From Stylophora pistillata (lineage: Eukaryota): a DNA stretch of 64,000 nucleotides. The position numbers were made by a program. This document shows, piece by piece, positions 12,001-18,000 of this stretch. The stretch's first letter is position 1; every line of letters begins with the position of its first letter. The stretch is taken from contig NW_019217939.1 of assembly GCF_002571385.2 (NCBI RefSeq), positions 283,149 to 347,148 on the forward strand, read 5' to 3'.

Positions 12001-15000
12001 TTCGCCGTTTTATTTTAAGCCAGTTAAAGCCTGACGCCTTGATTTCTATTTTTATGTTTATATGTAATATCATCATGAACGATTGAAACTTTTGCTTTTT
12101 ATGTAGATGACTCAGTCCCCTCCATGCTATCCTAACTCGAAATTTAATTAGTCATTTCTGGTTACAAAGCCAACATCAAATCATTCGTGAGCCAAAAACA
12201 TAAGAACAAGCCAGCACACAACAAAAAAAAATTGGAATATTCAATTCAAGAAATAATCATAACTTTATCGACTTAGAAGAGCTCAGTTTTCTTGAATATA
12301 CCAGCCGTGTAACAATGATTTTTTTTCCCTTTTTTCTTTTTTTTTTCCCTTCCCACTAAGTGCGCCATTGTATGCAACATCACTGTCAAAAAAGGTAAAG
12401 AGCCTTTTAGATCTCCAAGTTGTTGACAAAGAAAGCAGCCGTAGCACTACTTTTACTACCATTTTTCTTAGCTCGTAATTCATCAACCCGAACGAAGGTT
12501 CGAATCGCGTTGTGCTATGTTGCTTTTACCCGAAGCATTTTCCTATTCGCCAACGGTATTAAATATATCTTATTAACCAAGCGCGAGTGCCGTACTGGGA
12601 GAATATCGGCCCGAGGTCTTGACAGCACGGACCGAGCGCAGCGAGGTCCGTACAAAAAAGACCGAGGGCCGATATTCTTCCAGTACGGTCCCGAGCAAGC
12701 TTGGTTAATAAGAGATTTATTATACGACTGAAGTTCAAAGGGACACAAGTGCGGTATCATTCGGTACCATTCGGGACAGTGCCCGGTCCAATACTGAGAG
12801 AATATTGACCGGCAATAGAGCATTTTGATTGGTTGATTTTAGTTATTGGCCCTCTGACTGCCCGAGTCGTGTAATAATTCACCTTAATAAACTACGCAGC
12901 GCGCTCAAAATGGTCAATTGTTATGTTATTCCTCAGCCATCGCTAAGATATTTTTATTTCACACTATGTTCAACCCTTCAGCCCGGCTGTGTCGTTTCCT
13001 GAGGGTAAGATTAAGAAGAAATTACAATATAAAAATGAAGAAGAAACGAGGAGTTTGTTATGAACAAACATTTCGCCCCTTGAATATCAAGCTATATCCT
13101 CTCTTCTTGTCTATAAATAACTGTACACGTGGCTATTTTGAATGGTTGCTATTTGGTATGTGTATGATAAAGCTGCACTCACATTAGTGATCAACTTACC
13201 AAAAGTTTAAGCATTCTTCAACATGGATTTTATCTTCTCGTCTTTTGCAGTGTCCATCAATTTTTTCCCATCTGGGTCTTCTCCATCGGGATCTGCACCC
13301 TGAAATTTTCAAAAGAGGAAATCAACTTTTGGAGTGGATGGTCAGTGGAAAAAGTGCACTACGGATTATGAGAATTTCTGTGAAATGGAGGTAAAATGTT
13401 TGAACCAAAGATATTTAGGGCACCAGCAACAAGCAGTACATTGAATACACATGGACCGCTAGAATATGAGACGGTTTCTGACTGTGTACTTTCATTTGCT
13501 CTAAGAAAGCAACCAATTACAACGGGAACTTTTCATACAAGAAGTGAACATTTTTCTCTGGAGTGGCGCCCCGCATAGAGGTCCTTTTTCCTATTGCAAC
13601 CATCCTGGTTTTTACAAATAGTTACCGTAAATTCAGTTTCAGACGATTCTTTTTTTCTCTGCATACCCTGCACAAGGACTGTGATTTAAAAAAAAAACTT
13701 GAAACCGCCGGGTTATCTAACCGACAGTCATTAAATCTCCAAACTATAGTCAAAGAGGAATCCTTTCAGCAAGCTCTGTTTTACATTTACCACCGACTCT
13801 GCATTACTGAGGATTTCAAAGAATGGTATAAGCTATTTCATTGGCAGTTGTTTCGTCAGCTGAGCTAATGTCGCTCAGCAATTACAGTCCATAATCCGCT
13901 CATTCAGATAGCTAAGCATATATTCATCACTTGTCCTACCCTGCGTTTCTTATGCTCCTACATCATACTGGATGAAATCATAAGCGAAAATTTTACAGTT
14001 CGCAATGCGCCAAATGTGTTTGGAAACGAGCTACCTGTATCGATTCTTCACTCGGGAGAATGCGACAACCTTTTCTAGGGAAGTTGAGCAAGATTTAAAC
14101 GCGGAATTATTAAGAAAATTCTCTCTTTTAGTTACATATTCTCATTACCATTTTCAGCAAGTACTCCACAAGATTGCTATTCTCATTCATGACTGCGTAG
14201 TACAATGGAGAACAATCATCCTCGTCAGCTAACTGGGAAAGAAGAAAGAAATCTAATCATTTCAGAAGATGTGGATGGCTTGTGTAGTAAGGTATATAGA
14301 AGTACGTACAGCTGCAGAAATGTATAAAGCTGTGTCGTTTCAGTTTCATATTTTTCCACCCATGCACATTCATAAGACTCAATCTTATATGAAAGGAATC
14401 TAAGCCATTTTCGCCACAGCACTCCAAAAACAATCTGAAGTGTAGCAGGTCCATGCTAGGAGAGAAGAGCAAAGAATTGAAGCCGTAAAGTGTTATCCAC
14501 TTAAGGAGTTTCAACCAAGGAAGTAAAATCTTATTTACGGAATCTCTTTTGCAGAAGCACATTCTAACAGTTTAAACGTTTTTCACGTTATAAATTCAAG
14601 CTAGGAAATACATCTATGTGCTCGATGCGTATTTTTAGACGTGATTTGTAAGTGGTCGGATGTAGAGGGTCTGAACTGAACAATGAATTAGCGATTCATC
14701 ATAAACGACCGATAATACTCAGTAGAGTCACTTCCCGATCATGAGATCTTCTTTCTCGTTTGCCATGATCTGTATTCTGTTGAATTTTTATCAATATCCT
14801 CTATCTGCTAAACGTTACCGGTTACTGACCTTCGCGCCATCATTTCGTTATGTTTTCTGTTTCCTGACAATAATTAACAGCGTTTAACGATTGGACAAAG
14901 CTTTGAACCTGAAATTTCCTTGATCACGTCTATTTCCACTGAAAACAAACTAACTCCACGCTCAAGCGTGAGAAAATATTAACAGATCTCAGCAACGGAA

Positions 15001-18000
15001 ATTTTGAAGTGAAATAACATGGTTCGTGAAATGTTCCGGTGTTCGTGACATCATGCATAAGATCACTGGTTTCACGCCTTTCTAGAAATTGGGGTGCAAC
15101 GCAGGAATGTTTCTGTACACGTTGGAATTATACATCAAGAAAGACGAAGTTATTCACAAAGAATTTATCCATCAGTCACCCTTCACTGCTGAGAAAAGTT
15201 GCCTCTGGATTAAGTATGTCAATAGACAAGGAGCTTTACTTGAATTATAATATGACGTCACTGAATGAAAGAAAACTTTTATTTTAGTCCATTCACACGA
15301 TGACATTTGACTTTATCTTCTCCAGGCAATCGTTTAAATCAATCACTGATATGATCATTTTTTTCCCTTTTAAAGTTAGCTTGGGTTGGTAGTTAGTGCT
15401 AATAGGTTTGTATTTAAATTAAAACAATCGTGGCTTCATTTCAAAGGTCGATAGGTCTTTCGTTGAATAAAATGCAAATTATCCAAAGACGTTAAGCTGT
15501 CAAATTCGTGGCTGGGGTACCCTTGAAGATCAATAACAGTGTTGTTTTTGTCGTTACTGGGATGTTTTCTTTTAATCCAGGGTATTGCTATGATTTCTGA
15601 GAAATGTGAATCGTTCAGTTATCATAAATGATTCCGTTCATTCATCAATTCAATTGCGCAACAAAACGTGTCATGGTAGACAGCATTTGAAGTGGTTGCC
15701 ATTATGTTAACTCAGTATATTTGAAGCTTTGCAAGTAAACTCGAGTAAATAACTTACATTAACATCCGCTCCTTTCGATACTAGGTACTTCATGACGTCC
15801 AGCTTTTGAGCTTGAACGGCAATATGAAGAGGACTGCGTCCATGTTGAATTGGCGTGTTTACCTGACTCCCCTGAAAAAAGAAAGAGGCAAGACTGACTA
15901 TCATGGCCAGCAATAAGATATTCTAAATCCCGTAGGTGGGTAGTTACAGATTAACAACAACGCCTTCGACGCCTTCTGATACGATTGACATACCAGTTAC
16001 TTGGTGTAAAGTCTCCAAAAAGGTTCAATTAACTAGGAAATCATAATTTGCAAACTTTGTCCTCAGCGAGACATAGGCAGTTCGATAACCTTCAAACTTG
16101 CAGATTATCAACAGTTACAGCTTTTATCTCTGTTATTTCGGCTCTTCAAATCGTGTTCCAAAGATAAAGAGTCAAACCTCTTCATGAGAAAGAAAATCCA
16201 AATTAAAACAAGTCAATTTACTTACCGGTCGTGAGAATTTCTCTTTCACAACTTCCAAATTCCCTGATCGTAACGCTGTGACTAAGATACTCATTTCTGC
16301 TCCTTTAAATGATTTTCACTTTAAGAATACCACTCGTGGTCAAATCTAAACGTCAAGTCGTCAAGTACTTAAACACTGCCCTTTATATATATGCATGTCT
16401 GGCTCACGCTATGTCACGTGTGACATATTTAATACAGCATGGTAGAGGTCATGGATATTTTTAAGACGCCAACCAAGAACATGCAATTATTTAAATGGAT
16501 GAAGAGTAGGAAATGCTTTGTCATCACGTGTATTTCTTCCAACCTGAAAATGACTATTAGCAGACTCCATTAACACAACTGCGCCTGCGCAATAAAGGGC
16601 GGAAAGAGAGAGGAAACAATATGTGAAGGGTATTATTGGAACCAAGCGAACCGACCAGGATTTTAGATAAACCACCTATGCAGAAAAATGATGAAAAGTT
16701 GAGTATGATCTGGGTGAAAAATTTTGGAAGTAAATTAAATGTAGCAACTAGACAAGCAAGCAAACAAAGAAAACAATAACAAAACAAAACAAAAAACGGG
16801 AAAATGTTCGCAAACATGCGCCAATCCGGGAAAAGAGGAACCTAATGTCTTTCCCTCTCTATTAAGAAATGAGCTACCTTAAACGAGGTACGAGTTGGTA
16901 TGCTGGATGAAACATAATTTTTACTAACGTTTGAAAGTAAACTTGATAATGGAGAAAATTCTTTCAGTGTAAGCCGGATTGGCGAAAATTCCTAAACATG
17001 CTTTAATCGCGGGTGAGCTTACCTCTCTTCGGATCCTTGATTAGAAAAAATCTTCTTAGCTAAAACAATGAGCTCGGCGATCTAAGAATGGGCTCATCAA
17101 AAGTATGTAAAGGAAATTTGCACGAAATTATCCCATTTCAGTCACAAAATAATCTTAACAAATTAAAAACGTGAATTTACTGGCATGATGTCAGAATGTT
17201 TCGCATTTGTAGAAGGCCCGGCTCATACGCTCTCAACTTGGTCCGAAATTCTTCAAGTTTGTCTTTTATATAATGCCCTATAATTATCTCTATCTTCATC
17301 TGTCCTAGTTCCTTCTTTGTTTCAAGTCGCCCCTTAGTTTTTTCAGTTTTAGCATAACACTGATAACCTTTGGTTAATTTACCTTCAATGTCTATGGTTA
17401 CATGTCGCCAAAACGTAAGCCTTTTCTCAATTATATTCACATTTTCTGTCCCAAGTTTTTCCATTGTATTTACGTAGCGGAGCAGTCTTTGCCTTTGGCG
17501 ATTCGAGTGATTTAGTGATTTTCAGGGGAGCCTTTTATTTCAAGTTTTCTGTAAGAAGTATTCTGGACAGATGTTCATACAAAGGTTTGCGTTTAATGCA
17601 AATGCTGGAAAAAGAAGCTTATTAGAGCTGCTAAATTTATACAAATTACTCTAGATGCTGTAAGATAAATTAGGTCATTGTTATGCGTTTTTGCTAAAGT
17701 AAAGCATCATTTCAATCCTATTAGGCTTCGAATAAATACTGCGCCAAACATTTTCAAAGCCGTCTAAGATTAAATACCTTAAATTAGCTCAGAGGAAAAA
17801 TTCTAAATTCATGAAGATCGTTAACGTAGCTCACCATATTTGTACATGTAAATTACACTTTATGTCAAAACTTAGCGATTAAGTTGTTGCATCGACAACG
17901 CATTTACTAATTCGAATTCGAAATTTGCACTTGATTATCACCTCATTTAAGCTTAAGGCTTTCAAAGTTTGTTAAATGAAAAACCTAGCAGTATGATGGG

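What the first reader, a model, noticed from the sequence alone, without database searches (positions are those of the whole stretch)
13207..16294. Hidden four-exon myotrophin/V-1 paralog that has lost the capping-protein contact residues
Seen in sequence: four phase-0 exons (69, 114, 84, 93 nt) with canonical splice sites give a clean 119-aa ankyrin protein, and only exon 2 shows in the ORF track. Established (from memory): human myotrophin is 118 aa, its internal exons are also 114 and 84 nt, and it sequesters actin capping protein through W8, D44 and E78. In my hand alignment these positions are T, Q and N here, while the ankyrin scaffold is intact. Inference: a duplicated myotrophin that kept its fold and gene structure but binds a different partner.
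Basis: partly seen in the sequence, partly recalled or inferred. Interest (0 to 1): 0.7.

Follow-up and report, generated by a model that had tools for sequence, protein, structure and literature searches.

The report
Coral myotrophin-like ankyrin gene, diverged
This is a real four-exon stony-coral gene for a small ankyrin-repeat protein shaped like myotrophin but lacking at least two of the three residues myotrophin uses to grip actin capping protein; related corals already carry it under the name "myotrophin-like", so it is a modest curiosity.

Summary
Four phase-0 exons on the minus strand (69, 114, 84, 93 nt) have GT..AG borders and encode 23+38+28+30 = 119 residues. Nine 119-aa stony-coral database proteins, three of them named myotrophin-like or Myotrophin, span all three junctions exactly. 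The gene is therefore real and already annotated elsewhere; it is "hidden" only from a prokaryote-style ORF list. The predicted fold is four ankyrin units (pLDDT 93.5). Solved V-1/myotrophin chains are its best structural match, but only narrowly, at 32-34% identity, the same as to designed consensus ankyrins. A protist protein that is 50-52% identical to solved V-1 (P0152) served as a bridge. Three alignment methods put coral T6, Q43 and N77 opposite its Trp, Asp and Glu, the residues shown to be critical for capping-protein binding (PMC2897767). T6 and Q43 are invariant in 9 of 9 corals. Position 77 varies, and an acidic residue sits at 77 or 78 in all nine. Whether this is a paralog beside a canonical coral V-1, the sole diverged ortholog, or an unrelated small ankyrin could not be tested. 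Verdict: partly supported, modest interest.

The parts
16226..16294 (-). Exon 1, 69 nt. It holds the start codon (16292-16294) and 23 residues of the N-terminal capping helix pair.
   Evidence: Translation. Donor gtaagt and an upstream in-frame TGA. tblastn to coral orthologs residues 1-27. The helices are H3-10 and H13-20 in the ortholog model.
16277..16279 (-). Codon ACA = Thr6, the position opposite Trp8 of V-1.
   Evidence: hhalign pairs coral T6 with W13 of the V-1-type protein P0152. T6 is invariant in 9 of 9 coral orthologs. The codon was read.
15872..16225 (-). Intron 1, 354 nt, phase 0, GT..AG.
15758..15871 (-). Exon 2, 114 nt, 38 residues: first beta-hairpin and full ankyrin repeat.
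   Evidence: Translation. Pfam Ank E 5.8e-9, 36.2 bits, above the 21.1 cutoff. tblastn E about 1e-21.
15812..15814 (-). Codon CAA = Gln43, the position opposite Asp44 of V-1.
   Evidence: BLASTP, MAFFT and hhalign all pair it with D52 of P0152. It is invariant in 9 of 9 orthologs.
14233..15757 (-). Intron 2, 1525 nt, phase 0, GT..AG.
14149..14232 (-). Exon 3, 84 nt, 28 residues: acidic hairpin (D-E-D) and most of the second full repeat.
   Evidence: Translation. Pfam ankyrin models at E 3e-4 to 1e-3, all below their cutoffs. tblastn E 1e-13 to 9e-11.
14185..14187 (-). Codon AAT = Asn77, the position opposite Glu78 of V-1. The next codon is Glu78.
   Evidence: Paired with E86 of P0152 by three methods. 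Position 77 is N x5, S x2, G, D among the 9 orthologs. Position 78 is E x7, D, N.
13300..14148 (-). Intron 3, 849 nt, phase 0, GT..AG.
13207..13299 (-). Exon 4, 90 nt plus the TAA stop, 30 residues: C-terminal cap.
   Evidence: Translation. It aligns ungapped to the C-cap of P0152 with 12 of 30 identical, and P0152 ranks 1 of 84 small ankyrin proteins for this exon.
16382..16391 (-). TATA-like motif 95-97 nt upstream of the ATG (a possible core promoter; coordinates approximate).
   Evidence: Pattern match only. Not tested further.
12953..12958 (-). First AATAAA, 249 nt downstream of the stop (a possible poly(A) signal; coordinates approximate).
   Evidence: Pattern match only.

Best explanation
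The locus is an intact, spliced gene for a 119-residue protein built from an N-terminal capping helix pair, two full ankyrin repeats and a C-terminal cap. That is the size and fold of V-1/myotrophin. It is the ortholog of a protein kept at 76-97% identity across stony corals and annotated there as myotrophin-like. I read it as an old, strongly diverged offshoot of the V-1 family that no longer sequesters actin capping protein in the V-1 manner. V-1 inserts Trp8 into a hydrophobic pocket of capping protein and uses Asp44 and Glu78 to form salt bridges with its basic triad. All corals instead have Thr and Gln at the first two positions, and an unconstrained residue at the third. Like other ankyrin proteins it would act as a small binding module. 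It would hold an unidentified partner with its nearly invariant N-terminal half (cap helix 1, first hairpin, repeat-1 helix 1) and the invariant acidic D-E-D hairpin of the next repeat. Shown: gene model, conservation, fold and residue states. Inferred: descent from V-1, loss of capping-protein binding, and a different partner.
For: Gene model and splice sites. Nine 119-aa coral proteins run across all three junctions, and the window exons match them at 92 to 116 of 119 positions when counted exon by exon. Several sit as an uninterrupted frame on contigs of 1057-2276 nt, shorter than the 3088-nt genomic span, so these are spliced transcripts or processed copies (inference). Fold: AlphaFold2 on the ortholog alignment gave pLDDT 93.5 and four helix pairs. 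In Foldseek against the PDB, ranks 1-3 of at least 500 matches are V-1 chains (3aaa_C, 7df7_B, 7df7_A; TM 0.87-0.89, rmsd 1.4-1.7). In the Atlas feature search the three best clusters are all named myotrophin, with 179 and 175 shared features for the first two. A genuine V-1-type protein scored 191 and 173 against the same two clusters. This is a lead only. Contact residues: hhalign (probability 99.1%, 113 columns), BLASTP and MAFFT all put T6, Q43 and N77 opposite W13, D52 and E86 of P0152. P0152 is itself 50-52% identical to solved V-1 chains over 114-119 columns. Its Asp and Glu are 34 residues apart, like Asp44 and Glu78. In V-1, W8A lowers affinity from 21 nM to 6.4 uM. W8A, D44R and E78R no longer inhibit capping (PMC2897767, section 7 read). 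T6 and Q43 are invariant in 9 of 9 orthologs. Of 61 columns in the N-terminal half, 47 are invariant, against 27 of 58 in the C-terminal half. Rate argument (inference): a protist V-1 keeps 50-52% identity to vertebrate V-1. This animal protein has only 32-34%, although it changes slowly within corals (76-97%). It does not behave like the slowly evolving canonical ortholog.
Against: Identity to V-1 (32-34%) equals identity to the designed consensus ankyrin 1n0r (34%) and to DARPins (28-34%). The Foldseek E-value margin is only about tenfold. No V-1 chain appears for exon 1 (6 hits at E<=10) or exon 4 (9 hits at E<=10). None appears among the 60 rows shown for exon 2 (536 hits), exon 3 (184 hits) or the full-length Orbicella protein (437 hits). 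It ranks first only for exon 4, narrowly (score 57 against 54 and 53). It ranks 7th of 83 BLASTP hits for the full-length Orbicella protein. An acidic residue at position 77 or 78 in all nine orthologs, together with the acidic D-E-D hairpin, could still meet the basic triad. No canonical V-1 was shown to exist in any coral, so paralogy is untested.
Confidence: 0.5

Rival explanations
1. It is an unrelated small ankyrin-repeat protein. The size and the two-repeat-plus-caps layout arose independently or from another ankyrin family. The name myotrophin-like is an automatic best-hit label, so nothing was 'lost'.
For: Sequence similarity to V-1-type proteins is not above the generic ankyrin background. 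The cap exons do not retrieve V-1 from the PDB at E<=10. The C-cap ending that resembles V-1 also occurs in a non-V-1 140-aa protein, P0165, with 11 of 30 identical. All three defining contact residues are absent at the aligned positions. Database names are automatic.
Against: V-1 chains take ranks 1-3 of at least 500 Foldseek matches. The three best Atlas clusters are all myotrophin, with shared-feature counts as high as for a genuine V-1-type protein. The alignment to P0152 is colinear end to end, from cap to cap.
Confidence: 0.3
2. It is the coral's only V-1 ortholog and still binds and sequesters capping protein through re-drawn contacts. Candidates are the acidic residue at 77/78, the D-E-D hairpin and hydrophobic residues of cap helix 1.
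For: An acidic residue is kept at 77 or 78 in 9 of 9 orthologs and in the window. D64-E65-D66 are invariant. No second myotrophin-like protein turned up from any coral in the three word-index searches, though those searches could not have reached a canonical one. A coral larval proteomics paper lists myotrophin-like proteins and F-actin capping protein as changing in opposite directions at settlement (PMC12960093, two passages read).
Against: Thr for Trp8 and Gln for Asp44 are the kind of change that cost V-1 more than 25-fold to about 300-fold in affinity (PMC2897767). [quoted passage not shown] A protist V-1-type protein keeps all three. The overall divergence is much larger than for a protist V-1.
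Confidence: 0.2

Closest known systems
V-1 / myotrophin (MTPN), the ~13 kDa ankyrin-repeat inhibitor that sequesters actin capping protein (PDB 3aaa chain C, 7df7, 1myo)
   Same: Length is 119 against 118 residues. The layout is the same: cap, two full repeats, cap. V-1 is the best structural match (TM 0.87-0.89, rmsd 1.4-1.7). The nearest language-model clusters are myotrophin. The alignment runs colinear from cap to cap. Corals carry the database name myotrophin-like.
   Different: Identity is only 32-34%. Thr, Gln and a variable residue sit where V-1 has Trp8, Asp44 and Glu78. Both full repeats lack the usual glycine at the helix turn in the window (Q45, E78). Capping-protein binding is untested.
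P0152, a 133-aa V-1-type protein from a marine protist transcriptome (MMETSP/EukProt record)
   Same: It is the same four-unit layout, alignable over 113 columns at 31% identity with probability 99.1%. Its C-cap aligns ungapped to exon 4.
   Different: P0152 is 50-52% identical to solved V-1 and keeps Trp, Asp and Glu. The coral protein does neither.
Designed consensus ankyrins and DARPins of the cap-2 or 3 repeats-cap type (for example 1n0r)
   Same: The fold is the same, with TM 0.85-0.89 and identity 28-34%, as close as V-1. The positions changed in the coral protein correspond, from my recall of DARPin design, to the repeat positions that are randomised to create new binders.
   Different: These are artificial. 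The coral protein is a natural gene under conservation across stony corals.

Membership tests
Ankyrin-repeat proteins (Pfam Ank clan) | At least one repeat scoring above the Pfam gathering cutoff | tested here: met
   Exon 2 alone scores Ank 36.2 bits (cutoff 21.1), Ank_3 30.7 (22.3), Ank_4 30.5 (22.7) and Ank_2 29.5 (27.3). Exon 3 is below cutoff on all models. Exons 1 and 4 have no hit.
V-1 / myotrophin | A protein of about 118 residues consisting only of an N-cap, two full ankyrin repeats and a C-cap | tested here: met
   119 residues, with four helix pairs at pLDDT 93.5 in the ortholog model. Chain 1myo is 118 residues.
V-1 / myotrophin | Closest solved structure is V-1 | tested here: met
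   Ranks 1-3 of at least 500 are V-1 chains. The margin is small: E 5.6e-9 against 6.9e-8 for a designed consensus ankyrin.
V-1 / myotrophin | Sequence similarity to V-1-type proteins above the generic ankyrin background | tested here: inconclusive
   Identity to V-1 is 32-34% against 28-34% to designed ankyrins. P0152 ranks 7th of 83 hits for the full-length ortholog, and 53rd, 44th, 55th and 1st of 84 for exons 1-4. No V-1 appears among the PDB hits of exons 1 and 4 at E<=10. The Atlas lead favours myotrophin.
V-1 / myotrophin | Trp8 on cap helix 1 (inserts into the hydrophobic pocket of capping protein) | tested here: not met
   Thr6 in the window and in 9 of 9 orthologs, aligned to Trp13 of P0152.
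V-1 / myotrophin | Asp44 (bidentate salt bridge to capping protein alpha Arg260) | tested here: not met
   Gln43 in the window and in 9 of 9 orthologs, aligned to Asp52 of P0152 by three methods.
V-1 / myotrophin | Glu78 (salt bridges to capping protein alpha Lys256 and Arg266) | tested here: not met
   The aligned position 77 is Asn in the window and N/S/G/D among orthologs. Caveat: Asp or Glu is present at 77 or 78 in 9 of 9 orthologs and in the window.
V-1 / myotrophin | Binds capping protein 1:1 and blocks barbed-end capping | not testable with these tools
   No capping-protein sequence from a coral could be obtained, so no complex prediction was attempted. A bench assay is needed.
V-1 / myotrophin | Shared gene structure (four coding exons, internal exons 114 and 84 nt, phase 0) | not tested
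The window side was measured. A literature search for the gene structure found nothing useful.

The most novel reading that the evidence does not exclude
This is the only V-1 relative in stony corals. The V-1/capping-protein sequestration cycle, described as present through most eukaryotes, would then have been lost in this lineage or rebuilt on different contacts, with the small ankyrin scaffold re-aimed at another target around larval settlement.
Probability: 0.15. Interest if true: 0.55.

Novelty: new variant of a known kind. Interest (0 to 1): 0.3.

Why it matters
V-1/myotrophin is held to keep much of a cell's capping protein in reserve, through three residues reported as strictly conserved. 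A conserved animal protein with the same architecture but without those residues would mean one of two things. It could be a natural case of an ankyrin scaffold re-targeted after duplication. If it is the sole copy, actin barbed-end control would differ in corals. In practice the result is mainly a caution for annotation: "myotrophin-like" in coral gene lists, including the proteomics and expression studies that cite it as a muscle or actin factor, should not be read as "inhibits capping protein".

Tried and rejected
1. Searching each exon alone against PDB sequences and Pfam gave only generic ankyrin matches. Long multi-repeat proteins sum many weak hits and bury small ones.
2. The same swamping affected the full-length Orbicella protein and P0152 against the PDB. 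V-1 was absent from the 60 rows shown of 437 and of 449 hits. It also affected NCBIfam, where all hits were far below cutoff.
3. Local alignment of single exons to P0152 put exons 1-3 in the wrong repeat register. Residue mapping therefore had to come from colinear full-length database orthologs.
4. Three word-index searches found no canonical myotrophin from any animal. The index needs shared 5-residue words, so this says nothing about absence.
6. I did not use the search of protein representatives. It returns only the best 150 by summed score, with no names or taxa, so it could neither surface small V-1 relatives nor say whether one is from a coral.
7. I did not use complex prediction. No coral capping-protein sequence was available, and my claim is absence of binding.
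8. The fold of P0152 without an alignment was poor (pLDDT 65.4). Only the identities and ranks are used, not its TM-scores.
9. Two JBC papers on V-1 binding were not held.
10. A search for the myotrophin gene structure returned nothing relevant.
11. In one search my identity filter let one family fragment (P0177) into the non-family set. It tops the exon-3 list and is third in the BLASTP list, and does not affect the rank given for P0152 by more than one place.
12. Supplements were closed. These include Takeda's Figure S9 and Table S2 (only legends and text seen), the accession numbers behind "myotrophin-like proteins" in PMC12960093, and Supplemental File 3 of the Exaiptasia preprint. They could bear on which residues are conserved in which species, and on which coral or anemone protein was meant.
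Full report
What is there. On the minus strand of 13207-16294 lie four open pieces of 69, 114, 84 and 93 nt. They translate to 23, 38, 28 and 30 residues. The first begins with ATG, seven codons after an in-frame TGA. Each of the three introns (354, 1525, 849 nt) starts gtaagt or gtaatg and ends in a pyrimidine run plus AG, and all are phase 0. A TATA-like motif lies 95 nt upstream of the ATG, and the first AATAAA lies 249 nt past the stop (pattern matches only).

How the window sequence was searched. 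I left out the step of joining the four translations into one protein, in tools and in scripts alike. Every full-length analysis below used database proteins exactly as a search returned them.

The model is real and already annotated in relatives. Exon 2 alone was under the 40-aa minimum of the protein search. I resent it as the same continuous frame with two more codons on each side. Among giant ankyrin proteins that search returned 119-aa proteins from stony corals:
- myotrophin-like [Orbicella faveolata] (P0088)
- myotrophin-like [Montipora capricornis] (P0091)
- Porites lobata, UniRef name Myotrophin (P0120)
- Desmophyllum pertusum, hypothetical (P0123)
- several records from unnamed sources.
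A second search added Oculina patagonica (P0125). Nine 119-aa sequences align without a gap, with 74 of 119 columns invariant. They run straight across the three predicted junctions. Counted exon by exon, the window matches them at 92 to 116 of 119 positions. tblastn of the four named proteins against the window hits the four exons and nothing else of note, so the window holds one copy. Several unnamed records carry the uninterrupted 119-codon frame on contigs of 1057-2276 nt. That is shorter than the 3088-nt genomic span, so they must be spliced transcripts or processed copies; this is an inference. The public protein sets also hold single-exon read-through "proteins" predicted from coral genomic contigs (for example P0130, P0138, P0206). 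That is what this gene looks like to a prokaryote-style gene caller.

Organism. The window is a stony-coral contig, not human. Besides these orthologs it carries a Six-class homeobox frame, a p24/GOLD frame and a DMRT-type frame. An 870-base N run at 40108-40977 was left alone.

Which family: evidence for V-1.
- Pfam sees only ankyrin repeats.
- AlphaFold2 on the nine-sequence alignment (Orbicella as first row) gives a confident model: pLDDT 93.5 and four helix pairs.
- In Foldseek against the PDB, ranks 1-3 of at least 500 matches are V-1/myotrophin chains. They are 3aaa_C, 7df7_B and 7df7_A, with TM 0.87-0.89, rmsd 1.4-1.7 and 32-34% identity.
- In the ESM Atlas feature search the three best clusters are all named myotrophin, at score 0.99, with 179 and 175 shared features for the first two. 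This is a lead, not a test.

Which family: evidence against, or neutral.
- The next Foldseek hit, a designed consensus ankyrin, is only tenfold weaker in E-value and equally identical at 34%.
- No V-1 chain is found by exon 1 (6 hits at E<=10) or exon 4 (9 hits).
- No V-1 chain is among the 60 rows shown for exon 2, exon 3 or the Orbicella protein.
- All NCBIfam matches are far below cutoff.

A bridge to canonical V-1. The last word-index search, run with the coral alignment as a profile, gave 119 hits among 469 candidates. Scores drop from 238-255 bits for ten full-length family members to 106 bits or less for generic ankyrins. Only stony corals appear among the named family members. One weak hit, P0152, is a 133-aa protein from a marine protist transcriptome. 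Although its own model is poor (pLDDT 65.4), Foldseek ranks V-1 chains 1-3 for it at 50-52% identity over 114-119 columns, and 1myo at 50%. Its nearest Atlas clusters are the same myotrophin clusters, with 191 and 173 shared features. I take it as a genuine V-1-type protein.

It ranks 53rd, 44th and 55th for exons 1-3, and 7th of 83 for the Orbicella protein. Specific kinship with V-1 is therefore plausible from architecture, fold rank and the Atlas lead, but sequence does not demonstrate it.

The contact residues. Takeda et al. 2010 (PMC2897767; passages and section 7 read) report the following:
- V-1 Trp8 inserts into a hydrophobic pocket of capping protein.
- Glu78 bridges alpha Lys256 and Arg266.
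- W8A drops affinity from 21 nM to 6.4 uM.
- W8A, D44R and E78R no longer inhibit capping.
[quoted passage not shown] This comes from the legend of their Figure S9; I did not see the figure.

P0152 has a single Trp (W13) on its first helix, and Asp52 and Glu86 at the same repeat position 34 residues apart, like Asp44 and Glu78. hhalign pairs coral T6 with W13, Q43 with D52 and N77 with E86 (probability 99.1%, 113 columns, 31% identity). BLASTP and MAFFT agree for the Asp and Glu positions.

In the nine orthologs T6 and Q43 never vary. Position 77 is N x5, S x2, G and D. Position 78 is E x7, D and N. Two of the three contacts are thus firmly absent. The third is absent at the aligned position. 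However, an acidic side chain is kept next door in every sequence, including the window (N77, E78). This weakens that part of the claim.

Ortholog, paralog or neither. A protist V-1 keeps about 50% identity with vertebrate V-1. This animal protein has 32-34%, although within stony corals it is 76-97% identical. From recall, the named species span both major stony-coral clades, which are hundreds of millions of years apart. A gene that evolves this slowly yet is this far from V-1 is unlikely to be the ordinary canonical ortholog; this is an inference. It fits an old duplicate that changed early, or a separate small ankyrin family.

I could not test whether corals also have a canonical V-1.

Literature on cnidarian myotrophin. 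Searches for myotrophin with coral or cnidarian terms found only two cnidarian uses of the name:
- Myotrophin-like proteins are enriched in coral settlers, while F-actin capping protein is higher in planulae (PMC12960093, two passages).
- A differentially expressed MTPN transcript is reported in Exaiptasia (bioRxiv 10.1101/2025.04.21.649845, one passage).
Neither says which protein is meant, and their supplements were closed. No paper in those searches discusses the contact residues in cnidarians. A 2025 review describes V-1 as expressed through most eukaryotes, including Dictyostelium but not yeast (PMC12803934, passages).

How it most likely works. It is a small ankyrin binding module. The most conserved surface is the N-terminal half, with 47 of 61 columns invariant against 27 of 58 in the rest. 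This half includes cap helix 1, the first hairpin and the first helix of the first full repeat, which is the same face V-1 uses but with different chemistry. An invariant D-E-D hairpin follows. I put 0.5 on a V-1-derived protein that has lost V-1-type capping-protein sequestration and holds another partner. I put 0.3 on an unrelated small ankyrin that merely carries the name. I put 0.2 on a sole V-1 ortholog that still binds capping protein through re-drawn contacts.

Verdict. The gene is ordinary in being real, conserved and already annotated in related corals. The new point is modest: the coral myotrophin-like family lacks the Trp and Asp that define V-1's grip on capping protein. Interest is 0.3.

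Noticed in passing
window 4478-5284 (+): Open frame with a SIX1 N-terminal SD domain (E 2e-43) followed by a homeodomain, i.e. a Six-class homeobox gene exon.
   Followed up: no
window 9762-10397 (+): A 212-codon open frame matching the emp24/gp25L/p24 GOLD family over nearly the whole profile (E 4e-39). It looks like a single-exon p24 cargo-receptor gene about 2.8 kb beyond the 3' end of the ankyrin gene. The chance-level tblastn hits at 9870-9944 fall inside it.
   Followed up: no
window 21273-22079 (-): Open frame with a DMRTA (DMA) motif (E 8e-12) and zinc-ribbon-like matches, probably an exon of a DMRT-type gene.
   Followed up: no
window 40108-40977: An 870-base run of N. The long 'ORFs' listed at 39966-41070 on both strands are artefacts of translating it. 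It was left untouched.
   Followed up: no
window 14152-14154 (-), residue 88: The window encodes Lys88 where all nine database orthologs have Gln. This is a single lineage-specific change just before the exon 3 donor.
   Followed up: partly
public protein records P0129-P0135, P0138, P0145, P0147, P0176, P0177, P0192, P0194, P0199, P0200, P0204, P0206: These database 'proteins' are single exons of this gene read through into intron sequence, predicted from coral genomic contigs. They inflate hit lists and show conserved intron flanks between close species.
   Followed up: partly
window exons 2 and 3 (residues 45 and 78): Both full repeats lack the usual glycine at the turn between the two helices in the window (Gln45, Glu78). 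Four of the nine orthologs have Gly at 45.
   Followed up: no
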